A program made the position numbers and the translations under genes. Of a stretch of 32,000 nt of DNA, positions 1-20,600 are shown piece after piece; the stretch's first letter is position 1; each line of letters opens with the position of its first letter. The stretch covers positions 64,962-96,961 of the forward strand of contig CAZKBG010000002.1 of NCBI GenBank assembly GCA_964551375.1, written 5' to 3'. A model generated the notes under the pieces. It was given only the letters and a program-made list of their open reading frames with translations, made no database searches and was not told the DNA's origin. The stretch comes from an uncultured archaeon (lineage in GTDB: Archaea; Iainarchaeota; Iainarchaeia; Iainarchaeales; JAAZKV01).

Positions 1-3000
1 TCCCTTACATTAACAACACAATGTTCTTTGAAGCAACTGATGGAAATAACTCACTAAGCGGAGTATTAATCCAAATCAAAAACGGAAAGAACACGCTTGG
101 AAAAGTTGAAACAAGCGGAGAAGGACTTGCAACTTACGAACTTAGCGAGCCAAAACTTGACGATGAAATAACATTTATCGCAAGCAAAGAAGGATATGAC
201 AATGTTGAAGTTACAAAGAAAGTTGACGCTGCGCTACTAACAATAACTCCTCAATCAATATCTGAAACAATCAAAATAGGGGATGTTACTGGACTAACTA
301 CAACAGTAATAATGCAAAATAACACTTCAAAAAATGTGAGACTTGGAAGCGTTCAAATAAACGGGGACATGAAAACTTATATTGACGCAAAATTCATTGA
401 AACATTAGCAGGAACAATAATCGAACAGGGAAAAGACAAAAACTTCACTTTATCACTAAAATTAAACTCAAGCGCAATTAAACTAAAAGCTCCAAAAGAC
501 TTGACTGGAACTGTGGTAATAAACACTGAAATACCAGGGACAAGCGCAGGATACTTAAACGAAATACCAATCTCAATAAGACTTTCAATGCCAGGGTACA
601 TGGATGACGCAAAATGCCTCAAAGTTACTCCTGCAACAATTGACTTTATTACAAGCGATACTGAAGAAAGCAAAACAGTAGTGCTGTCAAATTTATGCAC
701 AGCAGAAGACTTCCAAATCCCGCTTCACGATATATCAGCTAAACTAAATGAAGCAATGAAAGTTGGAACAATAAGCGTAAACGGCTCTGGATTTGCGACA
801 GTAAACCTTGGCGATAAATATGTGAAAATCGCAGACAGCCTTGAAAAAGATTCTGAAACAGAACTAACAATAAGATTCTCTCCAAATTCAGCAGTATCAA
901 GCGGAAAACAAACTGTTACTGTAACAATAATGGGAAAGAATATACTTGACGACAAAACTGAAGAAAAAGTTGAAACAACCCTAAAAGTTAATTCAACAAT
1001 GAACAGCCTTTCAAAATGCATTGAAATAGTAGAGCCATCAGGCGGAATACTGCTTGATATTGCTCCATGGAACTTAGGATACAACAGAATCCAGCAGTCA
1101 AACATGTCAGCATACGCTGGCGGGTACCAAGGATTCACAAATAGAAGCGCTCCATACAATATGTCTTACATGGGCGGAATGGGGATGATGGGATACGGAA
1201 CTAACGGATACGGTTCAGCATACGGCGGATTTAACTCATACGGAATGTACCCAGGAAGCGTAGCAGGCGGCGGAATGCAAAACATGAGCTACCAGCAGAA
1301 TTCATTTATAATAAAGAACAACTGCCAGACAGATGTTGATATAGACCTTGACCCAGATTCAAGAGTTACAGTATCAACTGACAAATTCACACTATCTGCA
1401 AACAGCGACGAAACAGTTACAGTTGATCCGGGATACGTTCTTGGAAAATACAAAATAAAAATAAACGCAAAGCCAAAAGGAACAACAACTTCAATGAAAA
1501 ACCTAAAAGAAGTTTCAGTGACAATAAGAAGACTTGGGGATATGGACACTGACTGCATTAAAACAAATGTAACAACAATTAACCTAAATTCATTCTTATA
1601 CAGGCCTCAGAAATACTCTGTTTTCAATTACTGCTATGATACAGGAGCTGCATTATCAAGAAGCAATGTTGCATCAATTGAATGCTCGGCTCCGCAGAAC
1701 AACAGTCTTGGATTAAATTACTTCCAGCAGGGACAAGAATCATACTACGGCTCAAGCTACCCTCTAAATGGACAGAATGCAACTTACAACAGTTATATCC
1801 AGCCAAGCGGATGCCAGACAAACTCATGCTCATTAATTACAGGAACAAGAGTAAGACAAAGAACTACTGAACAGGGGACAACAGGAACAATAGAAAGAGT
1901 AGACTTTGATGTAATGCCAAGCTCGCAATACATACCGCAGCAGAAATTATTTGACAATAAAGTCGGAAAATACGGAGCATTCCAAAACCTTAGCGCAATA
2001 AGATCATGGGCTACTGAAACCGACGCAAGAACTAATGTTTACGGAAATTTAAATATCAGCTACACAAACCAATACGGTTCGGCTGAATGCATGGAATTCC
2101 CAATCACAATCACTGATGTTTGGAGAATGGGAGAAAGCATAGATTCGGCAATCAACTGGGGAGACCCAACAGCAAGGCCAAAAGACTGCCAAGAAGCTGA
2201 CGCGCTGAATATTACTAAATACTGGGAGAATAAAACTCCAAATAAAGACGGAGTAGTTCCTGACAGCGGAGACGGATTTAATGCACAGGATAGATATGTT
2301 TACATGGCAGAACCGCCAGCGCTAAAAATCGGACCATCGCCGACTCAAAACAGCATGAGTTACCCTTCATCTTACGGAAACAACATGTATGCATACATGA
2401 ATCCTCAATACGGAATGTACAACAACCAGCAGGGCGCTCAATACTATAGTTCAGGAAATGAATCTTATATGAGAGGACAGCCAGCAAATAACGGGAATTC
2501 TGGAAGCGCAACAAAGAACTGCGGACTTCTTGACGGAATTGATGTCAAAACTGTAATCAATCCAAAAGATGCAGGCGGAGCAAAAGTAACAGTAACTGAC
2601 AGAGGAACAGGAAGCATAATCAACAACTCAAGAGGCTCAAACTTAATGGTGGAAATTGACAGAAGCACAATGACAGTTAACTGTGTGCACTTAAACATTC
2701 CAATTACAGCAAAAGTAACAAGATCAATCAACTTTGAATCACAGGACTTGACATGGTTCCTTGATGTAAAATTCGCAAAGAAAGGAATACCTTACAACGA
2801 AGCAGAATGCATGAAGACAACAACAAGCACAGTGACAGACTGCAAAGATGCATTAAGAAGCATACTTCTAAAGAACAACACAAAACAAAACGATGCTGCA
2901 GGAATTGAAGCTGCAATTAAAGAGCTTTTAGACAAGCGACCAGAATGCAGGCAATATGTTGATGTGTCAGTTGCAAATACTATTTTAGGGCAGATTGCTC

Positions 3001-4993: not shown

Positions 4994-6064
4994 GTGGATA
5001 ATAGAGTGCTGACATTTGTACTAATAAGCATAATTGCATTCTTGTCAGGCTTTGCCGCTTCATACCTCTTTCCAATTCAAACTCCTTTTGTTGATGTTCC
5101 ATTCAGCGTTCTTGCAATAGGATTAATCCTTGGAGGGGCCGCTTTTTTTGGATATCTTGGCTTTATTCCAGCACTTCTTTTGGGACTCCAGCTGGGCGCG
5201 GAAAAAAACGCGGCAGTATTCATTTACATTGCGCCTGTAATACTTGCAATTTATGCGGGAACTTATATTGGAGTTTTAATAAACAAAGATTTTGAAAGAA
5301 AAGAAATATTTGCAAAAAAAGCAAAAAATATTATTGTAATAGTGGCAATCGCCCTTGTAATATCATTCGCGGTTGAAATGGCGGTGCCGTACACTGTAGA
5401 GTACTGGCCGAAGGATTATCTTGGGATGAGTGTGGGCGGAGGATATATGTCATATGATTCCGATTTGACAGGGGAAAATATTATTTTAAGGGGAGATTCA
5501 TTAACAATTCCAATTGAATTAAAACAAATAGTTGTTGGAAAGAACAATGCTTCCGTGTTTAACACTTCAACGAATGCGATTTTAAAAATAAAAGACGCTG
5601 ATGAAGGCACGCCAGTTTATGGGGCTGAAGTTACTGCCACAAGCCAGAGCGGAAATGAACATGAATTTATTGAAACTTCAAGCGGAATGTACAAAAAAGA
5701 TCAGTTCCCATTCGGAGAACAAGTAACATTAATTGTAAAATCAAAAGGATACGAAGAGTACAATAAAAAAGTTACATTTAACCGCGATATTATAAATGAA
5801 ATCTCGCTTACTCCAGAACCTGTGGGCGAGGAAGCAGAATCAAGCGTTACAATAAGGGTATTTGGAAGCGATGGAAAGACAATAAACCAGGCAAAAGTAA
5901 CTGTTTATAATAAAGAAACATCCGCAACACTCCAAATAGGATACACTCAAAACGGACAAATTACGCTTAAAGCAATGACTGGGACAAGACTGAGAATAGT
6001 TGTTGAAAAAGGAAGCACAGCCGCAGGGCTTATTGGAAAACTTGCGAGCCTTAAAAGAAGATAA
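4994..6064 (+). CDS. Polytopic membrane protein with two C-terminal carboxypeptidase-regulatory-like beta-sandwich domains
   Basis: 356-aa ORF with a GTG start, preceded by an AGGTGA Shine-Dalgarno-like motif at 4984-4989. The N-terminal ~140 aa form 4-5 hydrophobic helices. C-terminal segments (TPVYGAEVTATSQSGNEHEF...VTLIVKSKGYEEY; VTIRVFGSDGKTINQAKVTVYNKET...LRIVVEK) fit the CarboxypepD_reg-like pattern. Confidence 0.8.
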   Translation: MDNRVLTFVLISIIAFLSGFAASYLFPIQTPFVDVPFSVLAIGLILGGAAFFGYLGFIPALLLGLQLGAEKNAAVFIYIAPVILAIYAGTYIGVLINKDFERKEIFAKKAKNIIVIVAIALVISFAVEMAVPYTVEYWPKDYLGMSVGGGYMSYDSDLTGENIILRGDSLTIPIELKQIVVGKNNASVFNTSTNAILKIKDADEGTPVYGAEVTATSQSGNEHEFIETSSGMYKKDQFPFGEQVTLIVKSKGYEEYNKKVTFNRDIINEISLTPEPVGEEAESSVTIRVFGSDGKTINQAKVTVYNKETSATLQIGYTQNGQITLKAMTGTRLRIVVEKGSTAAGLIGKLASLKRR

Positions 6065-6239: not shown

Positions 6240-9200
6240 ATGGGCATTGGGGAATCGCTAAAAGGAATATACTATTCTGGCGAAGAAAAGTGGTATGCTT
6301 TCTGGGATAAAGTGGACGCACACATTCCTGTTTACAAAGTAATTGACCCAATTGATTCAGTAATACCGACATTTGCGCTGTTTTTGATTATTATCTTTTT
6401 AATTTTATTATTCGCAGGATATGCGCTTCTTGGCGGAATAGCTCCTGCAACCGCGACTCTAAAACTAAGCGTTGTTGACAGCGACGGAATGGGAGTAAGC
6501 GGAGCAACAGTGACTGTTGAAGGAGTTGATGGCGAATTCTACTCAAACGACTTCGGATTAATTGAAGACTTAATTGTTCCGTTTAATTCAACGCTTGAAG
6601 TAAATGCGGAGAAAGGCGAGAGCAAAACAACAATTCCAATTACAATTGACGAATTTGAAAAAATTGCAGAAGTAGTGCTTCCAGTTGAAAGAATAAGCTT
6701 TGAGCAGAAAACAATAAGATTCCAGAGCGAAGACGGCGCACTAATCCAAAGCGAATTAAGATTACATTACACATGCTCATCAGGAGTGGCTGCTCCTGAA
6801 GATGTTACAATTTACACAGGCAGCGCGAACTTAGCACAGCCTGCAAATTGCGGAACTCTTGAAGTAGAAGTAACTTCATCAAAATACGAAAGAGCAAGAT
6901 TTTCAGTAAGCGGACCATCAGGAGTATTTACACTAAAATTACTTGCGCCGGTTGAAAAAGGACGAGCTACAGTAAACCTAAAATACGAATCAAGATTAAT
7001 CACAGAACAAGTTACAGTTCAGGCATTTAGGGCAGATAATGCATTCCTTCCAGTAAACAGCGCAACAAGCGTAAACGGACAAGTTCAATTTGAACTTCCA
7101 CTTGGGGATTACAAATTCAAATCACTAATGCAAAGCGGGTACAAGCAGAAAGAATCATCAGTAGTTTCAATCACAAAAGCAAATTCAAACCCTGTTATTG
7201 ACTTAGATTTGCAGAAAGAAATAATCGGAGTAATTGTAGTTCAGGCAAAAGAAAATGGAGCTGCCTTAAGCGGAGTTCATATGAGCCTGACAAAAAAACT
7301 TCTAACCAGACAAGAGCCTGTAATTGACAGAGACACAAACGAAGGCGGATATGTTCAATTTGAAATTGCGGAAGACGCAAATTACACAGTAACAGCTACA
7401 AAAGATAATTACTGCGAAGTATCAGTTGCAGTATCAATAGGAGACTCAAGAGTAATCTCAATGAAGCAGAATGACTCAACATGCGGATACAAACTAATTG
7501 CAAGAGTAATAGACCAGGACAATAAGCCGGTAGCTCACGCAAAAGCGGCAATATTCATTGAAACAGCAGAAGATATTTACAAAATGCCAAGAGCAGAACA
7601 AGTAACAGGATACAATGGGGACGCAAACTGGAACCCTGTAAGAAAAACAAACAGCGACGAGAAATTCAAAGTATTCGCATATAAAGCATCATACTCCGGA
7701 TGGAGTGAAGCAAGAGTATTTGACTCGCTATCCTCAAGCACTCCATTTGTTGTAAAACTTGAAATCCCGATGGGAACAGTAAAAGTAATAGCAAAAGACA
7801 GAGACGCTAATCCATTGCAGTTTGCAGAAGTTCAGTTATTTGATGAATACGACGGAACAGCAGTAAGCGGCAGAAAATTAATTGAAAACGCTGACGGCTC
7901 AATTGAATTCAACTTAAAAGCTGACAAGAGAGTTTATGCAGTAGTAAAGAAAGAAGGATACGAATCATACACTACACTTCCAACAATGATGGTTGCAGGC
8001 GGAACAATTACATTTGACGTTGAACTATTCAAGCCACCTGTTCAGGAAATCTTTGTTAGATCGCTTGGATTCTTCAAAAACGGAACACCAGTTCTAAAAG
8101 TAGAGCCAAGCCAGGAATACGACGCATTGTTTGAATTAACTGCCCCTTCAACAAAAACATACTCAGAACTTGGATTCTTTGTAAGAATGGGCGCAGATAA
8201 TATGACTAAAACTGAGCTTGATAAAATATTTATCAAAGATGTAATGGCTTCAGGAGTAAAATCAATAGTAACAGGAGCGACTTACAATAAGCCAATGGGA
8301 TACTATAACACTGACTCAAAATACACTAACCTTGAAGAAAGCAAGTGGGCAGAAATAAAATGGCCAATGAACGGATATGTTCCTGGAAAAATCATAGTAG
8401 GAGTAAAAGTAAAAATCAGGCCAACTGCGCAGGCTGAAGAAAGACTTGAACTTGGATACAGAGCATGGGGCAAAACAACAAGCGGAGTATACGAAAGAGA
8501 CTTAATTGACGACGAACTTGGAACAAGCCAGAGCTCAACAACAAAACAAGAACTTTACGCTTCAACAAAGCCAGATTACATTACAGTTGGAATGGAAACA
8601 CTATGCGATACTCCAGAAAGCGGAAAATCATTCTGTATAACAGCAACTTACACTGATCCAGACGGATTCACAAAAAGCTTCAATGACTCATTTGACACTA
8701 AGAACAATACTCCTTACAATGTTTCAATCAAAATCATGAACAACTCAACAGTTGGATTTGATGACGCAAAAATAATGGTTGAAAACCCTGAAGAAAATTT
8801 ATACATGGGCACAATGACAGCAGTAACTCCAAGATTCTCTCCAAGCGAGATAAACGTAAACGGATACGCTACTGACTGGATTGACATGCCAAGATATGTA
8901 AAGAACTCATCAATTGAAATCCAATCAATGCAATTAACTCCGCAAAAAACAGGGACAGGCACATTGCTTGTAAAAATACGCGAAGGCGCATCAATGATTT
9001 ATGAAAAAGCATTTACAGTAAATATTGCAAGCGACAAGAAATTAACAGTGCGATTCATGAAAGGCGGAGTATTTGGAGACGAAATGCCTAAATTAGTATC
9101 AGGAAAAACTGAACTACTAACAGTTAAAGCATTAAACACAGTAAGCGGATTAGAAGTACAAGACGCAGTAGTAAAATTATTCGACAGATTTGGAACAAAA

Positions 9201-12200
9201 CTATTTGAAGCAACTACAAACAAGCTTGGAGTAGCAACAATACAAATACCAGCATCACTTCCAGGCGAAAGATTAGTTCTTTCAATTGAAAAATCAGAAT
9301 ACGAAACAGTGAGAAAAGATATTGTAATTGCAGAAGATGTAGTAAGCGTAGACCCAACTTCACTAAACTTCACAGTTAACCCGCAGTCAAAACTAACAGA
9401 TATGAAAACAGTGAAAATCACAAACGAAACAGCAATTGACCTTTATATAAAAAGCATAACACTAACAGGAAAACTAAAGGGAGTTCTTGACGAAGCCTCA
9501 ATTTCAGCATGGTTTGAGAACTTTAAAGGAAAGAAAATAAAATCACAAGACTATGAAGAAGTAGTATTCAAAGTAGCAAGCGCAGCAGTAGTTCCAACAG
9601 CAGAAGACCTTGAAGGAACATTTAACATTACACTAATATCACAGGGAAAAGAATGGGTAAAAGAAATCCCTGCAAAAATCAGAGTAGGACTTGGAAAAGA
9701 TGTTGACAACCAATCATGCCTTGAAGTAACAAAAACAATGTGGGACACAACAACAAGAGGAGCGCAGGTTGAAGCATCATTTGAACTAAGAAACAACTGC
9801 ACAGTAAACGGAGCGCCAGTAATTTTGAAAAACATCGGCGCAACAGTATCACAATCAACAACAGTAACAGGCACATTTAATGCGCAGTCAAAGAACATAC
9901 AAGTAGAACTTGGAAGCGCATTTGCAAGAATATTTAAAACATCAATGGACAAGGGGGAGAAAGTTCCAGTAACAATAAAATTCACCCCAATGCCAGGCTC
10001 AGCAGGAATAGCAACAGGCTCAATAATATTTGAAGCGCTGAATAATACTGACTCAAAAGCGCAGAAACTAACTGCTGAAATGAAATACAATATAATTTAC
10101 GAAAACTTGCAGGACTGCGTAGTGCTTGGAGCAGACGAATTAACAATTGAAGAAGAAGGAAGCGGAACATTTACAGTAAACAATAACTGCAAATCAAAAG
10201 TAGATGTTATACTAAGACCACAAGACTTGCAGGGCTCAATAAATAACACTGACTTTAAATTAAACGCAGGAGAAAACAAAGAAGTAACTGTAAAATCATA
10301 CAAAGGGCAAATAGCAGGAGCATACAATGTAGTTCTTGAAGCAAGAAGCACAGGAGCATCACTTGAACCGGTTGCAAATATTAAAGTAATAATAGAGCCA
10401 AAATCAAGCTGCTTTAAACTTACAAGATACGTTTATGATATATTTGACTACGAAGACAGCGTAAATCCATTTGACGGAATAGACAGAGGATACTTAATCA
10501 ACAACTGCGTTACAAAGAATGTAACAGCAAAAGTAACAGGAACTATTCCTTACGACTCATCAGCAATCCTAAAAACAATGCTATGGGGCGGACTAGTAGG
10601 CGGAGTAACAGCATACTTTAAGACAGGAAAATTTTGGCCAGATTCATGGTTCAACAAAAAGGACCCAAAAGTATCCTCAAATATACAAACAGGATACACT
10701 GATGTAGCGCACGCTCAAAGATCTGAACTTACAAGAGTAAGCACAGAAATGCAAACAGCAAAAGAAACAAATTACGGACAAATAGACGCTAAACTAAAGG
10801 CGCTTAAGAAACAAGCCGATGACACTAATGCAAAAGTAGTGAATAGATATAACTTAAATCGCGCAGAATGCGAAAAAATCTCAGCTAACCCTGCTGATGC
10901 TTCAAGAATTGCATGCTTAACAAAAGCAACTTCAATAAAAGCAGACGCTCAAGCAATAATTACAAAACAATACGCTGCCGCTGAAACTGATATTAATGCG
11001 TTAAGAGAAAAATTAAAGAAAGCTGAAGCAGAGTTCTCAACTCAATTAAAAGCTTCAGGCGAAAAGATGGATTCATACACAGAACAGCAGAGATCAAACG
11101 CTTCATTCCAAGTAGGACAAGGAACTATAAACAATGAGAAAGCAAACAGAGAAATGGACGCAACTCTAAGAGCAAATATTTCAAACTTAAGAAACGAAAT
11201 GAACGCAAAGATTGACGCATGGAATGGATACAGAAGCGACTTCATGAACACACTTTACAAGAAATATGAAAAACTTGACTTAAGCGATGTAGAGAAACAG
11301 AAGAATAACAAAATAACAGCTGATGCGGCTAAACCTGAAAAGTACTCATTAACAACTGCAGCGCTTGACGCAGTAACAGTTGACAAAGTAGAAGAGAAAG
11401 AGTTCTCAACAGCTCCAGCAATTACTGCTATTGACACAACAAAATCAGGACCAAGCCAGATAGCATCAAATGGACTTGCATCAACTAATGCTACAACTGT
11501 AACTGCGACTGATGTAATAACATCATCAGATGGATATACTTTGATTAAAGATGATGGAACAAATCCAAGCGCGGCTCCAGCTGATTATCAGCCTATGAAC
11601 AGTTTGACAAGCAATATTGGAAGATATTACAGAAATCCTGAAAGTTTAATAGTCCGCCCAACTGGTAATGATTCTTACACAGTAACAAGAAATGACGGGC
11701 AGTTAATTGGGACTTGGAGTTATAATAATTCAGTTTGGACTGAAACAATTGATTCAAGCACAAATTACTATGATAGTTCATTTAATCACTTAAAGAAAAA
11801 TGCTAAAGTTGACGGCTTTTTCCTGCTTGCAACAAGCGGAACAGGAGCTTCAACAGGAAGCACTTCATCTTCTGGCTCAAACTCAAACCAGTCAAGCGGA
11901 ATGAACGCAATATTAAACGGAGTAATTGGATACGGAGCAGGCTCGGTAATGCCTAACGGACTTGGCGGAGCACTTGCAGGCGCATTAACTACTGGATTTA
12001 TGCAGTGGATGCAGGCGCAAGACACTACAGTAAATTACAAAGACACTTTCGAAATGAACTGGATTGAATTTGTAAGTGCAACACTGGACAGCCCAAGCGG
12101 AGTAAAAATGGATGTGGGCGAAGCAATGTATGATTATGAAACTTACTACGGAACAACAGTAACTGGAAGCACAGTTTCAGAAACTACAAACGCAACATAC

Positions 12201-14513
12201 TCAGGAAACATAAAATACAACGCAGAAGCATTGAATGCTACAGTTGGAACAGTGGAAGAAAGAGAATTGACATTCACAAACAGCGGAAAACTAATCCAGG
12301 AAAAGAAATGGACTCCGTTTGTAGGATTAATGACAGTAAAAGGACAAGAAAAAATATATGATACTACTTACAAATATGATGAGATTAAGGAAAAAGCAAT
12401 AGAAAGAGGAGACTACGAAGAAGAAGACGGGTTCTTTGACAACTTCTTCTCAGGACCAAACAATGTAGGCGAAATAGCGCAAATAGCCGACTCTGATATT
12501 GATGTTAACTCGGTAAGATCATACGAAAAGAAATTCCACTTGCTGTTTGAAGCATGGCAGTACGTTGATTGCGGACCAAGAACATACGCTTGCCCAATAA
12601 AACAAAACGTAAGCTGTGACGTGGATGGAAAGAAAGGAGTAACAGGACCTGAAGGAGTTCCAAGAATATTACTTGACTGGACTTGGGGCGGAGTAGCAAA
12701 GAATGAATGCGACTCGGATGTAAAAAGCACAGGCGACAGATCAGCTTCATACAATTACTGCGACACAACACAATTGACAATTTCAACACTAAAGAAACTA
12801 AGCGAACTAAGGGATTTCTTCTCAAGCCCGACTTACTACTCAAACTTACAGTGCCCAAAAGCAATTGACATAGCAGGAACAAAGACACAAAAATTAAGCG
12901 AAACAGCAATTGATATTGGAATAACAAGCATACAAATGATACCAAATGAAAACGGCGCAACAATAGAAACAATTGTTGAAACAACAAATAATGTTCCAAT
13001 GCAGGCAAAAGTAGCATTCACTTTAACTCGAGCTGACGGCAGCGCAGTTAACGCAAACTGCCCTGAAGAGACAAAAACAATAACAAGCAGCGGCAAATTC
13101 ACTTGCACTGTTACACAAACAGGAACAGGAAGCATTGGAGTAGGAACATTCAATGTAGTTGCAGTCATGACTCCAACAATAGTAGCTGGAGTAGAGGATA
13201 ATGTTGCAAGCAATAATATAATTACAGCTTCACTAATAATGGGAAGCACAGGCGCAGCGCAGTGCCTTGGATACAGCACACAAAAAGAAGTGCTTGAAAA
13301 AGTATTCGCAGCAAGTTCAGCAGGCGGAACAAATGTGCTTGAATCAAAGAAATACCTGCTTGAAGATGTGTCATTTAAAGCAAACTTAATCAGAGACGGA
13401 TTCAGTAAAGACTTCAAGGAAGACTTTGACGCATGGGCAATGCAGATACTTGCATCAGCTCCTGAATACAATAACTTAAGAGAATTATTCTTAAGCGACA
13501 AATTCAGCGTAAAATGGCCAACAAAAGGAAGCTCTCCATGGGACGCAGGCAAGTACGACGCTAAATTAGTTGTAACATTCAAAGACAACTGGAAATGGGA
13601 CTACAATAATATTGAATCAGTAGTTCTTGATTTGTCACCACAGGGCGCTCCAGACCCAGACTTTACAATATACAATGTTCCATTTGACGGAATGATTGGA
13701 ATTAATTCTGATGACGGAAGACAAGGATACGGAGCAGATTACGTTCAAAAAACTGAAGACATATTCCAAATAGCTGAAACTGCTGGAAATGTTGTAGCAC
13801 AGCCAAAAGCAGGAAGCAACGCAGCAACAAGAGTAAATATGTCAGTAATTAAAGGAACAAATGCATTCACATTACTAAACAGCTCTCCAACAAGAGGAAA
13901 TGTATTAAGCATTTATAGAATCGGAGACGATGTTGATTTCACAATCACTCCAAGCCTTGCAGTGCCGGTAATACTTGATATTGAAAGAAAAGCAGAAAGC
14001 GATGCAGCAGCATTCTACACTGCAGAAGTAAACGGACAGCCGCAAGAAACAGGAACAAGCTTTATCTCATGGACTGGAATCGGACAGGGATGCGTTGCAT
14101 TTGACGGAACAAGCATGACACAGTACTATAATACTCCTGATTACAAAGCAAATTCATGCTTCATTGGATATGACGGATACGGACTATGCTGGCCAATGGC
14201 AAAAGTATCAGGAAAATCATCCTTCTACGGACAATTCTTCGCTCCACAGGACACAGTAACAGTTCTAAAAGTTACAGGCTCTAAAGGAACAGCAGGATTT
14301 TACACTACATTTGGAGAAGGCACAACAATACAAGTTGGAACAACAGGCAGCGAAATAAGAACGCTTGAAAAAGTGCTTGCGCTTGTAAAAGAAAAGAAAG
14401 TATGTGTAATCGGCGGAGACTACTACTGGAATAATTCTGAATTCACAGGCGACACTGAGTTCAAATCACAGATGAACGCCCGCGAAAACACATGCATTGA
14501 CAAAAGACCTTAA
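6240..14513 (+). CDS. Giant membrane-anchored surface protein, paralog 2 (2757 aa)
   Basis: Uninterrupted 8.27-kb ORF. The N-terminus has the conserved motif KGIYYSGEEKWYAFWDKVD followed by a hydrophobic anchor (TFALFLIIIFLILLFAGYALLGG). At least 6 CarboxypepD_reg-like repeats (e.g. GTVKVIAKDRDANPLQFAEVQLFDEYDG...VVKKEGYESY). Cys-bracketed Ig-like modules (CLEVTKTMWD...RNNC; CVVLGADELT...NNNC). Two internal Gly-rich hydrophobic segments flank a coiled-coil/Ser-Thr-rich region. The C-terminal module is shared with paralogs 1 and 3. Confidence 0.92.
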   Translation: MGIGESLKGIYYSGEEKWYAFWDKVDAHIPVYKVIDPIDSVIPTFALFLIIIFLILLFAGYALLGGIAPATATLKLSVVDSDGMGVSGATVTVEGVDGEFYSNDFGLIEDLIVPFNSTLEVNAEKGESKTTIPITIDEFEKIAEVVLPVERISFEQKTIRFQSEDGALIQSELRLHYTCSSGVAAPEDVTIYTGSANLAQPANCGTLEVEVTSSKYERARFSVSGPSGVFTLKLLAPVEKGRATVNLKYESRLITEQVTVQAFRADNAFLPVNSATSVNGQVQFELPLGDYKFKSLMQSGYKQKESSVVSITKANSNPVIDLDLQKEIIGVIVVQAKENGAALSGVHMSLTKKLLTRQEPVIDRDTNEGGYVQFEIAEDANYTVTATKDNYCEVSVAVSIGDSRVISMKQNDSTCGYKLIARVIDQDNKPVAHAKAAIFIETAEDIYKMPRAEQVTGYNGDANWNPVRKTNSDEKFKVFAYKASYSGWSEARVFDSLSSSTPFVVKLEIPMGTVKVIAKDRDANPLQFAEVQLFDEYDGTAVSGRKLIENADGSIEFNLKADKRVYAVVKKEGYESYTTLPTMMVAGGTITFDVELFKPPVQEIFVRSLGFFKNGTPVLKVEPSQEYDALFELTAPSTKTYSELGFFVRMGADNMTKTELDKIFIKDVMASGVKSIVTGATYNKPMGYYNTDSKYTNLEESKWAEIKWPMNGYVPGKIIVGVKVKIRPTAQAEERLELGYRAWGKTTSGVYERDLIDDELGTSQSSTTKQELYASTKPDYITVGMETLCDTPESGKSFCITATYTDPDGFTKSFNDSFDTKNNTPYNVSIKIMNNSTVGFDDAKIMVENPEENLYMGTMTAVTPRFSPSEINVNGYATDWIDMPRYVKNSSIEIQSMQLTPQKTGTGTLLVKIREGASMIYEKAFTVNIASDKKLTVRFMKGGVFGDEMPKLVSGKTELLTVKALNTVSGLEVQDAVVKLFDRFGTKLFEATTNKLGVATIQIPASLPGERLVLSIEKSEYETVRKDIVIAEDVVSVDPTSLNFTVNPQSKLTDMKTVKITNETAIDLYIKSITLTGKLKGVLDEASISAWFENFKGKKIKSQDYEEVVFKVASAAVVPTAEDLEGTFNITLISQGKEWVKEIPAKIRVGLGKDVDNQSCLEVTKTMWDTTTRGAQVEASFELRNNCTVNGAPVILKNIGATVSQSTTVTGTFNAQSKNIQVELGSAFARIFKTSMDKGEKVPVTIKFTPMPGSAGIATGSIIFEALNNTDSKAQKLTAEMKYNIIYENLQDCVVLGADELTIEEEGSGTFTVNNNCKSKVDVILRPQDLQGSINNTDFKLNAGENKEVTVKSYKGQIAGAYNVVLEARSTGASLEPVANIKVIIEPKSSCFKLTRYVYDIFDYEDSVNPFDGIDRGYLINNCVTKNVTAKVTGTIPYDSSAILKTMLWGGLVGGVTAYFKTGKFWPDSWFNKKDPKVSSNIQTGYTDVAHAQRSELTRVSTEMQTAKETNYGQIDAKLKALKKQADDTNAKVVNRYNLNRAECEKISANPADASRIACLTKATSIKADAQAIITKQYAAAETDINALREKLKKAEAEFSTQLKASGEKMDSYTEQQRSNASFQVGQGTINNEKANREMDATLRANISNLRNEMNAKIDAWNGYRSDFMNTLYKKYEKLDLSDVEKQKNNKITADAAKPEKYSLTTAALDAVTVDKVEEKEFSTAPAITAIDTTKSGPSQIASNGLASTNATTVTATDVITSSDGYTLIKDDGTNPSAAPADYQPMNSLTSNIGRYYRNPESLIVRPTGNDSYTVTRNDGQLIGTWSYNNSVWTETIDSSTNYYDSSFNHLKKNAKVDGFFLLATSGTGASTGSTSSSGSNSNQSSGMNAILNGVIGYGAGSVMPNGLGGALAGALTTGFMQWMQAQDTTVNYKDTFEMNWIEFVSATLDSPSGVKMDVGEAMYDYETYYGTTVTGSTVSETTNATYSGNIKYNAEALNATVGTVEERELTFTNSGKLIQEKKWTPFVGLMTVKGQEKIYDTTYKYDEIKEKAIERGDYEEEDGFFDNFFSGPNNVGEIAQIADSDIDVNSVRSYEKKFHLLFEAWQYVDCGPRTYACPIKQNVSCDVDGKKGVTGPEGVPRILLDWTWGGVAKNECDSDVKSTGDRSASYNYCDTTQLTISTLKKLSELRDFFSSPTYYSNLQCPKAIDIAGTKTQKLSETAIDIGITSIQMIPNENGATIETIVETTNNVPMQAKVAFTLTRADGSAVNANCPEETKTITSSGKFTCTVTQTGTGSIGVGTFNVVAVMTPTIVAGVEDNVASNNIITASLIMGSTGAAQCLGYSTQKEVLEKVFAASSAGGTNVLESKKYLLEDVSFKANLIRDGFSKDFKEDFDAWAMQILASAPEYNNLRELFLSDKFSVKWPTKGSSPWDAGKYDAKLVVTFKDNWKWDYNNIESVVLDLSPQGAPDPDFTIYNVPFDGMIGINSDDGRQGYGADYVQKTEDIFQIAETAGNVVAQPKAGSNAATRVNMSVIKGTNAFTLLNSSPTRGNVLSIYRIGDDVDFTITPSLAVPVILDIERKAESDAAAFYTAEVNGQPQETGTSFISWTGIGQGCVAFDGTSMTQYYNTPDYKANSCFIGYDGYGLCWPMAKVSGKSSFYGQFFAPQDTVTVLKVTGSKGTAGFYTTFGEGTTIQVGTTGSEIRTLEKVLALVKEKKVCVIGGDYYWNNSEFTGDTEFKSQMNARENTCIDKRP

Positions 14514-14658: not shown

Positions 14659-17600
14659 ATGGCTGATGGAATAAAGGGAGTTTACTATGCTATTGAAGAT
14701 AAATGGTACGCTTTCTGGGACTCGGTTGACAGAGTTCTTCCAGTAGGCGGAGTAATTGACGCAATTGACACAGTAATTCCAAGCATGATACTTTTTATTT
14801 TAGTAATAATACTATTAATCGCATTTGGCGCATTCTTTTTACTAAGCGCAAACCAAGTATTTGACGCGACATTCACAGTTCAGACATTTGACGGCAGACC
14901 AGTGAATGACACTCTTTTAAGCGTTGAATTAATGGAAAATGGGGAGCTTGTAAAAACATTTGAGCAAAGAACTGATTCAGTTGGAGTTGTTACATTTAAT
15001 GCAATAAAGATGGGGCAGGAACTGATTTTTGATATTAACATAAGCAAAGGAACATTCAGCGGCTCATTTGTTATGGGCGAAGGCGCAATGGATGAAGTAA
15101 TAACGCTTGAAGAAAGAAGAGTGCCGCTAAATCTTTCCCCAGTTGTGAAAAAAATACTTGTAAAAGAATCAAGCGGATTTTTAGCAAGAGAACCTATTTC
15201 ATTAGTTTTTGGATGCGAATCATCAATTGTTCTTCCAAACCCATCAAAAGCAACTTTTTCAGGAACATTTGCAGTTGAAGTAACTGAACCAGTTGGATGC
15301 CGTTTAACTGCGACAGTAAATAATCCAAAGTACAAGCAGAAGACTTATTTAATTCAGTCGACAAATTATGATTTATTCCTTGAGCCAATAGAGCCGGTTG
15401 GAACACAATTAAAAGTAATAATCCGCTCTGCAGGATTTCCTGTAAGCGGAACAAATTTTAAAATAAAAATAACAGGAGACGCTAGTTACGAACTTGCAAC
15501 AACAGGCGAATCACAGGCAAGCGCAAATGTTAACCCCGGAAATTACTTAATCACTGTTACTGACCCAAAAGGAAATTATGGTTTAGTATCCAAAAATGTT
15601 ACTGTCACTTCAACAACAGAAGTTTTGGTGGAAGTATCAAAAACTGTAAAAGCACGGGCTACTATAAAAGTAATTGACAGCGAAACAGGCGTTGCAATTT
15701 CAAACGCAATTGTAAATTTAAGAGATTCATTTGGAAGAGAACTTGCAACTCAATTAACTGATAGCCTTGGATATACAACATACAGCTTTACTGATTTAGG
15801 CGATTATTCATTCATTGCTAAAAGAGCAGGGGACCTTAACGGAGGATACCTTCCAAAGGAATCGAAACAGACAATTTCAACTGATACAAATTTTACAATG
15901 GCGCTTGAGGCAATTACAGAAGAAAATGCAGGGAGAACAATTGTTACTGTGTACGATCAGGACAAAGTTCCAGTAGCAAATGCAAAAGTAATGCTGAAGT
16001 ACAAAGAAAATGACGGGCTTGTTGAACTAATGCAGGAGAAAAATTACGGACTAACTGACGCAAACGGAGAAGTATCACTAATTGCTGGACAGCCTTCCGG
16101 TTCAGTGTACGCTTACGCAATAAAAGGACCGTTTAACGGAGCATCAATGGACAAAAGGCTTGCAGTTGAAGCAATAAACAAATTTAATATCGAAATGGAA
16201 ATAGGAAGCGCAACAGTAAAAATAAACGTGCTTGACGAATCAGGAAACAAACTTGACGCAACAGCAGAAATACACTTAGTAAGCGGAGTGAGCGCTGATG
16301 AACACGGAATAGCTGGACTAATACCTGTTGAAAGCGGATATGCAGCAAGAAGCGTAAAAGCAGGACAAAAAGTATTTGTAAAAGTAATGGCTGAAACATT
16401 CGAAGACTATTACACAGCCCCAATTGATTTATGGCCTGACAGACCATATGACCTTGAAATTGTGATGCTGAAAAATATAGCTGAAGCAAAAATACTTCCA
16501 AAAGGAGTGTATAATGCAGACGGCGCTTTAGTTCAAACAATGGCTGCAGGAAAGAGATATTATGCTAAATTTTACATCTTATCAAACAGCGCATATGCAA
16601 ATGTAAAATTTAATTTCAGAGCGGGAAAAGAATCACTCCTTGAAAATGACATAATGGAAGTTGATGAAGTAGAAGCAAGCGGACTAACTTCACAGGCAAG
16701 AGGAGTAAGCTATGATCCTCAAAAAGGATATGATTTTGACGGAAATATTCTAAACCGAACAGACGGACTCTCAAAATGGGTTGAAATGGAATGGACTTCA
16801 TTTGGAAAAGGACTAAGAGAAGTAAAAGTATGGTTTAGAATAAAAAACACCGCTGCTCCAAACCAAGAACTTCAATTCTTCTACCGTGGAAAGTTTGATA
16901 ACTTAAGAAAACCTGAAAGCACTGCAGCGCTTGACTTTTACGCAGACACTTATTTCTCAGAAAAATTCTACGTTGGAGCAGAAACAATCTGCAAAGAGGG
17001 CTTCTGTGCAAACTCTGAATGGCTGTACTCCACAAAAAGCGAGCTTTACGTTGACGAACCTTACTCAATAAAACAGACAACAAATTACAATTATCACATA
17101 ACTTTACTTAACAATTCCGGAATTGACTACGGAACTTCAAAAAAACCAGTGACTTTGTCAATTTACGTGATGGGCGATGATTCTGACGACAAGAAAATCA
17201 AAATCAAAAGCTATGAAATAAAGGACTCCATTGGAAGGCTTACAAATAACTCCGCAATATACAGCGCTGAGAACTTATCCATTACTTCATTTGAGAAAAG
17301 CTCCACAATTGACATGCTTTTCAGCCTTGAAGGAATAAAACAGGGCGCAGAAGCGCTTAAGTTTGAGTTAAAATCAGAAGGAAAAATAATTTACTCAAAA
17401 GAAACTGACATAAAAGTTGTGAGAGAAAAAGACTTTAATGTTGGAATATCTCCTCAATTCATCCCTGCTTTGATTAACACAATGATAGAAGTTACAATAG
17501 TGGATGAAAAAGGCGAACCGCTTCCAGGCGCAACAGTAAATGTTTATGCAAAAGAGCCAGGATACGCGCAGTACCCGATTGATTCAAAAGAAACCGACAG

Positions 17601-20600
17601 GCTTGGAAGAGCTGAAGTAAAATCAGGAGCGCATTTTACAAAAACAAAAGTTATAATTGAAATAATAAAAGAAGGATACTCAAGACAAATGTTCTCAACA
17701 ACTGTTTCGGACGATTTAATCATTGCGTCTCCAGAAGAGCTGTTTGTTGAATTAAACACATTTTCAAAAAGAGAAGAAGTTAAAAAAGTTGAATTCGCAA
17801 ACCTTTCAAGAAGCAAAATGGTGCTAAAAAATATAGTTCTTGACTCAAAGTTCAAAGACTTGATAAATGAAGAAGCATTAAACGCATATTTTGAAGAACT
17901 GACACTTGAACAAAAGACAGTGAAGGGAGAGGACACGCTTGAAATAGAATTTATGAAAATAAGGCTTGCGAATTCAATTAACGAAGATAATTTCATTGAA
18001 CCTATTACTGTAGAAGGAATTGTAAAATTAGTATTTGTAGAACCTGAATCAGGGCTTACATTCAATATAGAACTTCCACTAAGAGTAAATGTATCCTCAA
18101 GCGCAAATCCAGACGCTGAATGCCTGATAATAAAACCAACAAGCAAAACAAGCATGACAACAGAAAACGCGCAGGTTAGATTTAATTTTGAATTAATCAA
18201 CGCATGCACTTCAGACGGAGTAGGAATACCTCTTCAATCGCTAATGGTGCAAGCTCCTGCTGAAATACCAGGAATTGCTGAAATAAGCCTAAGAAACTCA
18301 ACAGGCTCCTCAATTGGAATTACAGCTCTTGACGGCGGAAAAAGAAAATTAGTGGATAATGTCCGCGCAAACGAAAAATTATTCGGCGAAATAACATTTG
18401 CTCCAGGCCAAGAAGCGGTTGGCAAATCAGTACAGATTGCAGTTTCGTACGAAGCAAAGTTTAAGGGAACTACAGTAACAAGCAGTCCTTCAACAGTGAC
18501 TTATACAGCAAATGTAGTAAACCTAAAAGAATGCATGACAATAAGCTCCGAATCAGCTCCTGTTGAATTTAAGGGCAAATCAAAAATCAAAATTGACACA
18601 ACAGCATGCCTTGGGCAAATGATTGACATAATACTTTGCAAAGAAGATTCAGGATGCTCGGGTGGAGCGGACGGTAAAATTGTTTTAAGCAAAAAAACAT
18701 TCACACTTCAAAACAAAGCAGAAGAAATTGAAGCATATAATCCAACATACCCTGGAACTTACGGCGTAACAGTGCACGCAAGAACCAGAGGAACAGCAGG
18801 ATTCTCATACATAGGCGAAGTGCCTGTATCTTTCCTTGAATCTGAAACTAAATACTTCAACTTAAACAAATTTGAATTAACTTTAGTTGGAACAGGCGCA
18901 AAGGACTCAATCATACTTACAAACAAAATGATTTCAGAAACTATAAATGTAAAAGCGGATGAATGCACCTGGGGAAAAGAAGACGCAGAATTTAACTGGT
19001 CAAGCGCATTAACAGGCGCAATGATGGGCGCAATGCTTGGAAACCTAATTGGCTCTGCATACCACCCTGGAACAAAAGACAGCAAAAGCGGGAAAGACAA
19101 AAGTGGCGGAAGCGATGTTGAAGGGATGGACGCAAAAACAAGAGGTGAGGAAATCAGCAGATTAAATGACCTTGAAGCAAAGGGAGGGTTAAGCAGGGAC
19201 CAAGTAGCATATAGAAATGACTTAATCAGCGCGCAAAATAGATTTACAACAGGATATGATTCTTTTATCAACGGCGCAACTGCGCTTAATACGGGAGTGG
19301 ATGTAAGTTCAAGCTCTTCACTATCTTCAGTATTTGGCTCAGGCTCAGCAGCAAGCCTTGGAGTAGGAGAATCAACAACAATGGATACTGAAATGGGAAC
19401 AGTAAGAGTAACAAATATGGGAAACAATGAATACTTTGTACGCTCAAACAGCATTCCTTCAGGAAGAACATACACGGGGGATGTGCAGCTTGGAACAGTT
19501 GGAAATCAATTCGCAAATGCTTATTCAAATACTTCAGGACTTAGAAATTTCTCAAATTCACTTACAATGCCTTTTAGAACCACTCCAAGCACAACAACAT
19601 TAAATCCTTCAACAACAGGGTGGTCAGCTGCGACATATGGGGAAGTTGGACGAATACCAACAAGATATTTTGTTAACCTTCCTGCAATAATACATGCGCA
19701 GGAAAATGCATTGAAAGCAGATTCAAATAAATTATTATTAGCTGGCTCGGGCGGAAGTAGCACAAACTGGGTTCAAATATCACTAACAATAATCGGAGCA
19801 GTAGTTGGCGGATGGCTAATGGGCGACTCAGGATACAAATGCGCTGATAATTACGATGTTGTTCCAATGGAAGACTTTGTAATACTACTTCAGGGAACAA
19901 CAGTTGACTACACAGGACCGACAGGCGAAACAAGCGGAGAAAGAGTAATACCATCAGATGCAGGAGCATTAACATTTACTCTGGACAATATTGCTCCAGC
20001 ATGGAACTTTGAAGACGCGCAGTACGGATCTGAAGAAACTGTTGCAATTGACTTCGAAAATAACGGACTCAACGAGCCTGTTCCAAGATACGGCACATTC
20101 ACTGTGAATGCAAATGTACACAACCATGGAAGCGTAGTTCACAAAGTTGACGGAAGCACTCACACAAGCACTGGAGAAAGCGATTATGATGTATTCTGCA
20201 ATAACGAATCATTTGGAAGCTTTTGGATAGGCTCTGAAAGCAATCAGGGAGACTGCGGAACAGGCGGGAGAATTTCAGTAAGCAATTATTCTCAGAAGTA
20301 TCATTTAAGAGTAATCAGCGGAGAGCCAAAGGATGAAGAATCTTACATTAAGAAAGCAACAACATGCTATATGGGAGCTCTAACTGGAGCAACAGGAAAA
20401 GAAGCATTGCCAAAAGTAAAACTTGACTGGACATGGGACTCAATTAAAGCAGATACATGCGATTACACAAATCCTGACCACGTTTATTGTGACGGAACTC
20501 AATTCATGATTTCACTTACAAAGAAACTATCTCAGCTTCAGAAATTCATGAGAACAAACGGGGGCAAATTTGAATGTCCTCCTGACGAAATAGAAAATGA

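What the first reader, a model, noticed from the sequence alone, without database searches (positions are those of the whole stretch)
10560..12011. Giant 2: two internal Gly-rich hydrophobic segments enclose a ~425-aa coiled-coil plus Ser/Thr-rich insert
A first segment, AILKTMLWGGLVGGVTAYF (10560-10619), sits mid-protein after about 1440 aa of beta-sandwich repeats. It is followed by a long heptad-like helical stretch (about 10690-11290: AKLKALKKQADDTNAK..., INALREKLKKAEAEFSTQLK..., LRANISNLRNEMNAKIDAW) and then a Ser/Thr/Ala/Asn-rich, low-complexity stretch that looks disordered. A second segment follows: GMNAILNGVIGYGAGSVMPNGLGGALAGALTTGFMQWM (11898-12011). If these segments span the membrane, the protein would have two large ectodomains joined by a cytoplasmic coiled-coil loop. 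That is an unusual topology for an adhesin and could couple the surface to something inside the cell. Alternatively they are glycine-zipper oligomerisation or membrane-insertion elements.
Basis: partly seen in the sequence, partly recalled or inferred. Interest (0 to 1): 0.6.

Follow-up and report, generated by a model that had tools for sequence, protein, structure and literature searches.

The report
Split glycine-zipper hairpin, extracellular variable insert
Two conserved glycine-rich greasy helices in a 2,757-residue surface protein of a tiny DPANN (Iainarchaeota-like) archaeon flank a fast-evolving 426-residue insert that most likely lies outside the cell, so the proposed cytoplasmic signalling loop is unlikely.

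Summary
Giant 2 (window 6240-14513, 2757 aa) has seg1 at residues 1442-1460 and seg2 at 1887-1924. They enclose 426 aa: three long AF2-predicted helices, then disordered Ser/Thr-rich sequence. The two segments are conserved islands (37% and 43% identity) around a hypervariable insert (about 14% identity; 18-896 aa in homologs). Paralog G3 has the same pair; G1 lacks it.

The cytoplasmic-loop reading is not supported:
- Both segments are below membrane-span hydrophobicity (KD19 1.24 and 1.01, against 3.06 for the N-anchor).
- In some orthologs the seg1 apolar core is only 10-12 residues.
- An ortholog insert carries a LysM domain and another an fn3 domain, with no further hydrophobic segment.
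- Cysteines in the inserts appear as pairs or not at all, and as repeated C..C..CC modules.

Best reading: this is a split glycine-zipper hairpin at the stalk/head junction, whose turn has grown into a variable, displayed extracellular cassette. Whether the arms touch a membrane is unsettled; compact relatives have membrane-grade hairpins. Heptad periodicity is not significant, so "coiled coil" is unproven. The scan has already noted this hairpin family in other Iainarchaeota genomes. Interest is moderate.

The parts
6240..14513 (+). Giant 2 gene, 2757 aa (P0001)
   Evidence: ORF list and translation. Full-length orthologs at 40-55% identity occur in same-genus genomes.
6240..6440 (+). Conserved N-terminal motif (about 40 aa) plus a strong signal anchor (residues 41-67)
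   Evidence: KD19 3.06 and rough Hessa sum -5.5. The motif is conserved in all 20 fetched homologs.
10278..10547 (+). Last beta-sandwich domain of the N-terminal stalk (residues 1347-1436), ending in the conserved FDGxDxGYLxNxC motif
   Evidence: AF2 strands; 56% pairwise identity; alignment.
10563..10619 (+). Seg1, first hairpin arm (residues 1442-1460). Glycine zipper; AF2 helix 1440-1462.
   Evidence: KD19 1.24 and Hessa sum +4.6. Helix has pLDDT < 50. Zipper motif present in 16 of 16 sequences; 37% identity.
10671..11264 (+). Three long helices (1478-1545, 1554-1626, 1632-1675), probably an intramolecular antiparallel rod
   Evidence: AF2 pLDDT 70-91. No significant Foldseek match, best E 0.095. 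No heptad signal. About 14% identity among orthologs.
10869..10916 (+). Cys1544 and Cys1559 flanking the turn between helix 1 and helix 2; putative disulfide staple
   Evidence: Among 15 orthologs both Cys are present in 7, neither in 7, and one only in 1.
11265..11897 (+). Variable Ser/Thr/Asn/Ala-rich region with a small beta unit (residues 1803-1844, nt 11646-11771) and the conserved G-F-F-L-L-A motif before seg2
   Evidence: AF2 pLDDT mostly < 50, beta unit 50-60; composition; consensus.
11898..12014 (+). Seg2, second hairpin arm: seg2a (1887-1904), PNG turn, seg2b (1905-1925)
   Evidence: KD19 1.01 and Hessa sum +6.9. AF2 helices 1885-1894 and 1907-1925 have pLDDT about 50 or lower in two models. 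Seg2b shows 43% identity.
12015..14510 (+). C-terminal module, rich in beta-sandwiches, with conserved cysteines
   Evidence: AF2 mean pLDDT 72. Foldseek gives only generic Ig/CARDB-like matches at TM about 0.1. Invariant Cys columns.
18997..19062 (+). Paralog G3, first arm (residues 1447-1468): G-AMM-G-AML-G-NLI-G
   Evidence: Sub-threshold Pfam glycine-zipper hits: PF13441 at 18.1 bits against a cut-off of 28.9.
19750..19836 (+). Paralog G3, second arm (residues 1698-1726), about 230 aa after the first arm
   Evidence: KD19 1.53.

Best explanation
Seg1 and seg2 are the two arms of a conserved glycine-zipper helical hairpin. The hairpin sits at the junction between the N-terminal beta-sandwich stalk and the C-terminal beta-rich, Cys-containing module. 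The protein is a giant surface protein of an Iainarchaeota-like DPANN archaeon, anchored by its N-terminus. In this clade the hairpin turn has expanded into a hypervariable extracellular cassette. In G2 the cassette is a three-helix rod with a putative disulfide staple at its first turn, followed by a disordered Ser/Thr-rich linker and a small beta unit. Orthologs add Cys-rich repeats, a LysM domain or an fn3 domain. In G2 the arms are too weakly hydrophobic, and in several orthologs too short, to act as independent stop-transfer and re-insertion spans. The whole protein after the N-anchor is therefore exported. The arms most likely pack against each other through their small-xxx-small faces, possibly also between subunits or with paralog G3. 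That would clamp the base of the cassette, which is displayed as a variable binding module. SHOWN: positional conservation of the arms; hypervariability of the insert; sub-TM hydrophobicity; extracellular-type domains and pairs-or-none cysteines in homologous inserts. INFERRED: arm-arm packing, oligomerisation, the disulfide, and a binding role for the cassette.
For: The arms are conserved at a fixed junction in G2, in G3 and in homologs across the order. Identity is 37% (seg1) and 43% (seg2b), against about 14% in the insert. Insert length ranges from 18 to 896 aa. KD19 is 1.24 and 1.01 and rough Hessa sums are +4.6 and +6.9. For comparison, the N-anchor gives 3.06 and -5.5, and the TM helices of the neighbouring polytopic ORF give KD 2.0-2.9 and Hessa -1.6 to +1.5. 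The seg1 apolar core is only 10-12 residues in L051/L055/L056. The insert of same-genus ortholog L021 holds a LysM domain (40.6 bits, cut-off 20.9). It is the only LysM found in that genome. The insert of L026 holds an fn3 domain (26.8 bits, cut-off 25). In both, no other window in the region exceeds the arms in hydrophobicity. The Cys pair at the helix 1-helix 2 turn is both-or-neither in 14 of 15 orthologs. The Cys pair just after seg1 numbers 0 or 2 in all 16 sequences. Repeated C-x~20-C-x~18-CC modules occur in the inserts of L020, L021, L052, L054 and L058. The flanking N and C parts are beta-sandwich ectodomains with invariant cysteines.
Against: Compact relatives (L035, L033, L061, L062, L065) have membrane-grade hairpins with tight turns (KD19 2.1-2.8). 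There the turn would face the cytoplasm, which is the site where the insert lies in G2. The LysM and fn3 evidence comes from one homolog each, not from G2 itself. Seg2 reaches KD 1.6-1.9 in some orthologs, such as L021 and L054. No TM-topology predictor could be run. Disulfides are inferred from co-variation only, and the sequences are related.
Confidence: 0.55

Rival explanations
1. One reading: seg1 and seg2 each span the archaeon's own membrane once. The helical and Ser/Thr-rich insert is then a cytoplasmic loop joining two large ectodomains, and could couple the surface to the cell interior.
For: The flanking parts must both be outside, so an even number of crossings is allowed. Compact relatives have membrane-grade hairpins whose turn would be cytoplasmic, and G3's arms align to the arms of the compact hairpin. 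A few Lys residues follow seg1 in G2 (net +3 in 25 aa).
Against: Hydrophobicity is sub-TM and the apolar cores are short. Homologous inserts contain LysM, fn3 and Cys-rich CC modules, with no additional hydrophobic segment. Cysteines follow a pairs-or-none pattern. Inserts are net acidic, and across orthologs there is no consistent positive flank (net -5 to +4). This charge test is weak, because even the N-anchor flank is acidic. No cytoplasmic-type domain was found in 20 inserts scanned.
Confidence: 0.1
2. Latent membrane-insertion device. The arms are fusion-peptide-like or pore-hairpin-like elements, held about 1,400 residues out on the stalk, that enter a partner (host) cell's membrane. 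The variable cassette (LysM, fn3, Cys-rich modules) first binds the partner's envelope.
For: The segments are Gly-rich, moderately hydrophobic and charge-free, and lie far from the N-anchor. In L021 the LysM domain lies about 35 residues before seg2. A Gly-rich segment followed by long helices and a Cys-flanked chain reversal recalls class I fusogens; this is a resemblance from memory only. Clustered giant membrane-anchored proteins of a Diapherotrites archaeon were proposed to mediate cell-cell interaction (PMC5905446).
Against: There is no heptad signal. Foldseek found no fusogen or pore-former: the helical model had best E 0.095, and a Fusexin1 hit to the C-module had TM 0.10-0.17, which is generic. 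A large insert at the hairpin turn would prevent the hairpin from spanning a bilayer. Paralog G1 lacks the arms altogether. No host is known.
Confidence: 0.15
3. Second anchor in the cell's own membrane. The arms, possibly with seg2a-PNG-seg2b as a short re-entrant hairpin, lie in or on the outer leaflet. They tie the stalk/head junction back to the cell surface while the insert stays outside.
For: Membrane-grade hairpins in compact relatives suggest an ancestral own-membrane anchor. Aromatic and Lys residues flank seg1 (W...GYFK). Seg2 reaches KD 1.6-1.9 in some orthologs. Earlier scan follow-ups on other genomes favoured this reading (those notes are unchecked).
Against: The helices show no amphipathic moment, as an in-plane helix would. 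Single 15-20 residue helices cannot enter and leave on the same side. The hydrophobicity is low in G2.
Confidence: 0.15

Closest known systems
Clustered giant membrane-anchored proteins of Diapherotrites/Iainarchaeota (Candidatus Forterrea multitransposorum; Probst and Banfield 2018, PMC5905446)
   Same: The phylum-level group appears to be the same: the window's DNA polymerase B best matches 'Candidatus Iainarchaeum' MAGs. Several proteins of more than 1,800 aa with a membrane anchor are clustered in one region and have been proposed to act in cell-cell interaction. The window has three in a row, with further ones elsewhere in the genome.
   Different: The paper gives one sentence and no domain analysis. 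Neither the mid-protein hairpin nor the variable insert is described. Homology between the Forterrea proteins and G2 was not tested here.
Transmembrane glycine zippers, (G/A/S)xxxGxxxG (Kim et al. 2005 PNAS, cited from memory), and the Pfam glycine-zipper families PF05433, PF13441 and PF13488
   Same: The small-xxx-small periodicity occurs on short, charge-free helices and is conserved in seg1 of all 16 aligned sequences. G3's first arm gives sub-threshold hits to these Pfam models.
   Different: G2 gives no hit even at E <= 5. G3's hits are below the cut-offs (18.1 against 28.9 bits). The Pfam domains are two adjacent helices in small bacterial outer-membrane lipoproteins. Here the arms are 426 aa apart in a 2,757-aa archaeal protein.
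Elongated three-helix-bundle surface receptors (for example the trypanosome haptoglobin-haemoglobin receptor, 4e40/5jdo) and BAR-type bundles
   Same: These were the best Foldseek matches to the helical part of the insert; they are long antiparallel helices.
   Different: E-values are 0.095 or worse and TM-scores 0.1-0.3. This is a generic shape similarity only, with no evidence of homology or shared function.
Archaeal S-layer and surface glycoproteins with Ser/Thr-rich linkers next to a hydrophobic anchor (haloarchaeal S-layer glycoprotein; from memory)
   Same: A Ser/Thr-rich, low-complexity stretch lies directly before a hydrophobic, Gly/Ala-rich segment in an exported archaeal protein.
   Different: That anchor is C-terminal and strongly hydrophobic. 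Here 830 exported residues follow seg2. Glycosylation was not tested, and sequon density is not enriched.

Membership tests
Iainarchaeota giant N-anchored surface protein family (undescribed; as seen in relatives' genomes) | Conserved N-terminal motif of about 40 aa followed by one strong signal anchor | tested here: met
   KD19 3.06. The motif is conserved in all 20 fetched homologs.
Iainarchaeota giant N-anchored surface protein family (undescribed; as seen in relatives' genomes) | About 1,400 aa of beta-sandwich repeats plus a shared C-terminal Cys-containing module, with homologs across the order | tested here: met
   40 of 41 related genomes have matches. CarboxypepD_reg scores 39.6 bits. 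Invariant Cys columns are seen.
Iainarchaeota giant N-anchored surface protein family (undescribed; as seen in relatives' genomes) | Gly-rich hydrophobic hairpin at the stalk/C-module junction | tested here: met
   Present in G2, G3 and most homologs. It is not universal: G1, L034 and L030 lack a clear one.
Pfam glycine-zipper domains (PF05433 Glycine zipper 2TM, PF13441, PF13488, PF13436) | HMM score above the gathering cut-off | tested here: not met
   G2 segments give no hit at E <= 5. G3's first arm scores 18.1, 14.2, 12.3 and 12.5 bits, all below the cut-offs.
Pfam glycine-zipper domains (PF05433 Glycine zipper 2TM, PF13441, PF13488, PF13436) | (G/A/S)xxxGxxxG-type motif on the helix | tested here: met
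   Found in seg1 in 16 of 16 sequences. Seg2 is variable, with 0-4 motif matches and none in G2.
Membrane-spanning helices (stop-transfer plus re-insertion pair) | About 18 or more apolar residues with KD19 >= 1.6, or a negative apparent insertion energy | tested here: not met
   KD19 is 1.24 and 1.01; rough Hessa sums are +4.6 and +6.9. Local true TM helices give KD 2.0-3.4. Ortholog seg1 cores are 10-12 aa.
Membrane-spanning helices (stop-transfer plus re-insertion pair) | Loop between the spans has cytoplasmic character | tested here: not met
   Homologous loops contain LysM, fn3, Cys-rich CC repeats and pairs-or-none cysteines. The charge bias test was uninformative.
Membrane-spanning helices (stop-transfer plus re-insertion pair) | Call by a trained topology predictor (DeepTMHMM, TOPCONS) | not testable with these tools
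Canonical coiled coil | Significant heptad (3.5-residue) hydrophobic periodicity over long helices | tested here: not met
   Long helices are predicted with pLDDT 70-91. However, z at period 3.5 is -0.88, 0.12 and -0.75 against shuffles.
Class I fusogen-like architecture | Trimeric heptad-repeat core, a fusion peptide freed by cleavage, a C-terminal TM anchor | tested here: not met
   There is no heptad signal and no structural match. The strong anchor is N-terminal. Cleavage and trimerisation cannot be tested here.

The most novel reading that the evidence does not exclude
The split hairpin arms are a host-membrane insertion device of an episymbiotic DPANN archaeon. The variable cassette (rod, Cys-rich modules, LysM in one species) would dock on the partner's envelope about 1,400 residues out from the symbiont. 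The Gly-rich arms would then enter the partner's membrane, alone or as an oligomer with G3, to start a cell-cell bridge.
Probability: 0.15. Interest if true: 0.8.

Novelty: new variant of a known kind. Interest (0 to 1): 0.42.

Why it matters
DPANN archaea devote several per cent of their roughly 1-Mb genomes to clustered giant surface proteins that no one has characterised. How these cells attach to partners, and perhaps open them, is an open question. This analysis maps one such protein. A conserved glycine-zipper hairpin marks the stalk/head junction, and in this clade its turn is a hot spot where extracellular modules (helical rod, Cys-rich repeats, LysM, fn3) are swapped in and out. That identifies the most probable ligand- or host-recognition region of the protein. 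It also gives concrete targets for topology and binding experiments. Finally, it removes a more exotic but poorly supported idea, a cytoplasmic signalling loop inside an adhesin.

Tried and rejected
- **Positive-inside rule.** Flank charges after seg1 range from -5 to +4 across orthologs, and even the N-anchor's presumed cytoplasmic flank is acidic. The test is uninformative (sequence).
- **N-glycosylation sequon density.** Observed/expected is 0.74-0.90 in the insert, 0.76-1.64 in the ectodomains and 1.3-1.8 in cytoplasmic PolB and MetAP. It does not discriminate.
- **Insert length against arm hydrophobicity.** The trend is weak (Spearman -0.25, p 0.12, related sequences). It was not used as evidence.
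- **BLAST of inserts against N and C ectodomains.** This looked for shared modules and found only a boundary artefact.
- **Pfam on G2's own segments and insert.** Nothing scored above the cut-offs. phmmer against PDB sequences gave no hit at E <= 1.
- **Foldseek.** The insert model gave nothing below E 0.095. The C-module gave only generic Ig/CARDB/GH2-accessory matches at TM about 0.1, including a non-meaningful Fusexin1 hit.
- **Word-indexed protein search with the insert region.** It returned only 3 relatives, because low-complexity words swamped the candidate list.
- **LysM elsewhere in the relatives' genomes.** A 1.4-kb contig (L071) and a 1,488-aa protein (L072) carry LysM, but neither belongs to the G2 family.
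- **Literature.** No paper combines DPANN with glycine zipper. Only the one-sentence Forterrea mention is relevant.
- **Not possible here.** Model coordinates could not be read, so arm-arm contacts could not be measured. No TM predictor or multimer folding was available.
Full report
**Context.** The window has 38% GC and carries three consecutive giant genes on the + strand: G1 (3-4808, open at the 5' end), G2 (6240-14513, 2757 aa) and G3 (14659-22275, 2538 aa). Small membrane proteins, a family-B DNA polymerase and a methionine aminopeptidase follow. The polymerase's closest public relatives are MAGs labelled Candidatus Iainarchaeum. The genome is 1.09 Mb in 10 contigs and 93% complete. It is therefore a DPANN archaeon of the Iainarchaeota/Diapherotrites type. 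No ORF of 100 aa or more lies on the opposite strand within 10560-12011.

**Checking the observation.** Seg1 (AILKTMLWGGLVGGVTAYF) is residues 1442-1460, nt 10563-10619. Seg2 is residues 1887-1924, nt 11898-12011. The insert between the segments is 426 aa.

AF2 on residues 1340-2060 with a 16-sequence alignment gave mean pLDDT 59.7. Its predictions, in order along the sequence, are:
- a beta-sandwich at 1347-1436;
- a helix over seg1 at 1440-1462 (pLDDT < 50);
- three long helices at 1478-1545, 1554-1626 and 1632-1675 (pLDDT 70-91), joined by short turns;
- disorder, apart from a small beta unit at 1803-1844;
- two helices in seg2 at 1885-1894 and 1907-1925 (pLDDT about 50);
- the first strands of the C-terminal module.

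The label "heptad-like" is not confirmed. The hydrophobic power at period 3.5 is no higher than in shuffles (z = -0.88, 0.12 and -0.75). The short turns suggest an intramolecular antiparallel rod rather than a classical oligomeric coiled coil. Foldseek found nothing significant for this model. The best match had E 0.095 and belonged to generic long helical bundles such as the trypanosome HpHb receptor and BAR domains.

**The feature is not a chance one.** G3 is a paralog of G2, at 22-33% identity over the N- and C-terminal parts. It has the same pair of arms at the same place: residues 1447-1468, with G-AMM-G-AML-G-NLI-G, and residues 1698-1726, about 230 aa apart. G1 has no such segments at the equivalent junction, only Gln/Asn/Tyr/Ser-rich low complexity.

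The protein family is present in 40 of 41 related genomes across the order. HMMER matches typically split into an N block ending near residue 1450-1700 and a C block starting near 1855. I fetched 20 genomic homologs and 29 metagenomic loci. The two arms recur at this junction in most of them.

Among 15 orthologs, mean pairwise identity varies sharply along the region:

| Region | Mean pairwise identity |
|---|---|
| Last beta-sandwich | 56% |
| Seg1 | 37% |
| Each of the three helices | about 14% |
| Disordered part | 14% |
| Seg2b | 43% |
| Region after seg2 | 48% |

A (G/A/S)xxxGxxx(G/A/S) motif occurs in seg1 of all 16 aligned sequences. Insert length ranges from 18 aa (L035) to 896 aa (L026). 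The arms are thus conserved islands around a hypervariable insert.

**Are the arms membrane spans?** By Kyte-Doolittle (19-residue window) they score 1.24 and 1.01. The N-terminal anchors of G2 and G3 score 3.06 and 3.36. The four helices of the neighbouring polytopic ORF score 2.0-2.9. A rough sum of the Hessa 2005 biological scale gives +4.6 and +6.9 kcal/mol for the arms. It gives -5.5 for the anchor and -1.6 to +1.5 for the neighbour's helices. In several orthologs the apolar core of seg1 is only 10-12 residues, for example QQ-ALIGAVIGFF-KSDC in L055/L056. A segment that must stop translocation after 1,400 exported residues would be expected to be longer and more hydrophobic. No trained topology predictor was available, so this remains an argument from scales with local positive controls.

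**On which side is the insert?** Both flanks look extracellular. The N part is made of CarboxypepD_reg/MG-like beta-sandwiches. The C module is beta-sandwich-rich (AF2 mean pLDDT 72.4). Its Foldseek matches are only generic Ig/CARDB-type hits at TM about 0.1. It has invariant cysteines. The region from seg1 to seg2 must therefore cross the membrane an even number of times.

I scanned 20 homologous inserts against Pfam.
- The insert of L021, the same-genus ortholog in G011 (48% identical in both flanks), contains a full-length LysM domain (40.6 bits, cut-off 20.9). It ends about 35 residues before seg2.
- That is the only LysM found in that genome, and LysM was found in only 3 of 41 relatives.
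- The 896-aa insert of L026 contains an fn3 domain (26.8 bits, cut-off 25), plus sub-threshold beta-sandwich hits.
- In both proteins no window between the arms is more hydrophobic than the arms themselves. The helical part, these domains and the linkers therefore share one compartment.
- LysM binds peptidoglycan and chitin-type glycans non-covalently (PMC4004799, listed). In prokaryotes both LysM and fn3 are overwhelmingly extracytoplasmic (established knowledge).

The cysteines point the same way. G2's only two insert cysteines, C1544 and C1559, flank the turn between helix 1 and helix 2. In 15 orthologs both are present in 7, neither in 7, and one alone in 1. This holds although the surrounding sequence is about 14% identical. 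A second pair directly after seg1 (SDC-x11-C) numbers 0 or 2 in all 16 sequences. Across inserts, cysteines come as close pairs and as repeated C-x~20-C-x~18-CC modules in L020, L021, L052, L054 and L058. None shows the CxxC spacing typical of zinc sites. This is the signature of structural disulfides. The caveat is that the sequences are related and no bond was observed. No cytoplasmic-type domain turned up in any insert. Two further tests, charge bias and sequon density, were uninformative.

**The counter-evidence.** Compact relatives have the two arms adjacent, with tight turns and membrane-grade hydrophobicity.
- L035 has W-ILKGASIGAVFGSSAAIITAMGIGAW-AGP-VGILLGGLIGLLFSLFG-CHGC, with KD 2.09.
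- L033 scores 2.21 and L028 scores 2.02.
- The metagenomic L061, L062 and L065 score 2.2-2.8 and are followed by CPDPC.

G3's arms align with the arms of these compact hairpins, so the insert does sit at the hairpin turn. If the compact hairpins span the cell's own membrane, their turn is cytoplasmic. I reconcile the two observations by supposing that, in the insert-bearing clade, the hairpin no longer spans a bilayer. This fits its lower hydrophobicity. However, the trend of hydrophobicity against insert length is weak (rho -0.25, p 0.12) and I do not lean on it. This tension is the main reason my confidence is moderate.

**Most likely mechanism.** After the N-terminal signal anchor the whole chain is exported. 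The two arms form a glycine-zipper helical clasp at the junction of stalk and C-module, packing through their small-residue faces and possibly between subunits or with G3. The expanded turn is a displayed, rapidly evolving cassette into which binding modules are recruited.
- Shown: conservation of the arms, sub-TM hydrophobicity, and the extracellular-type content and cysteine pattern of homologous inserts.
- Inferred: I put about 0.8 on "the insert is not cytoplasmic" and 0.55 on the full statement.

**Comparison with what is known.** The only published mention I found is one sentence on Candidatus Forterrea, a Diapherotrites archaeon. [quoted passage not shown] Homology to G2 was not tested.

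The arms resemble transmembrane glycine zippers and the Pfam glycine-zipper domains. G2 does not hit those models, and G3's first arm hits them only below the cut-offs. This is a resemblance in motif, not membership. The scan has already reported the same family's "split glycine-zipper hairpin" in other Iainarchaeota genomes. Those notes agree on the anatomy and differ on which membrane, if any, is involved. I reached my reading before seeing them, and I took from them only the lead to the Forterrea paper, which I then checked.

**Verdict.** The feature is a new variant within an uncharacterised but recurrent family. It is of moderate interest, mainly as the probable recognition hot spot of DPANN giant surface proteins.

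Noticed in passing
window 3-4808 (G1), about nt 1500-2600: Paralog G1 shares the stalk and the C-module with G2 and G3 but has no Gly-rich hydrophobic arms at the equivalent junction. It carries a Gln/Asn/Tyr/Ser-rich low-complexity stretch there instead.
   Followed up: partly
L061:2632-2790, L062:2554-2660, L065:1943-2050 (metagenome loci): Distant family members have a membrane-grade two-helix hairpin (KD19 2.2-2.8) directly followed by a CPDPC-type cysteine motif just before the C-module.
   Followed up: partly
Inserts of L020, L021, L052, L054 and L058 (for example L058:3298-5118): Repeated modules of about 50 aa with the pattern C-x~20-C-x~18-CC match no Pfam family. They may be a new small disulfide-rich extracellular repeat.
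   Followed up: no
L071 (G010:C214:1-1396): A fragment encodes a cell-surface-type beta domain, a strong TM helix, NKRKNW and then a LysM domain. That order would put LysM on the side opposite the ectodomain. The fragment is on a 1.4-kb contig of a MAG with 5% contamination and is not a G2 relative.
   Followed up: partly
L072 (G012:C5:6500-13500): A protein of at least 1,488 aa has three LysM domains, Pro/Thr-rich linkers and its own Gly-rich hydrophobic stretch. It has no BLAST similarity to G2.
   Followed up: no
window 6240-6359 and 14659-14790; also G000:C2:25499-26401 and G000:C1:807859-808050: The N-terminal motif of about 40 aa ahead of the signal anchor is shared by at least five giant ORFs of this genome (1,843-2,757 aa). 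It is conserved across the order, which suggests a common export or anchoring module.
   Followed up: partly
window 4994-6064: A 356-aa protein with four strong TM helices and a CarboxypepD_reg domain (33.5 bits) lies between G1 and G2.
   Followed up: no
window 12015-14510: The C-terminal module folds with mean pLDDT 72 into several beta-sandwich domains with some helices. It has no specific structural relative in the PDB; the best hits are generic Ig/CARDB/GH2-accessory domains at TM about 0.1.
   Followed up: partly
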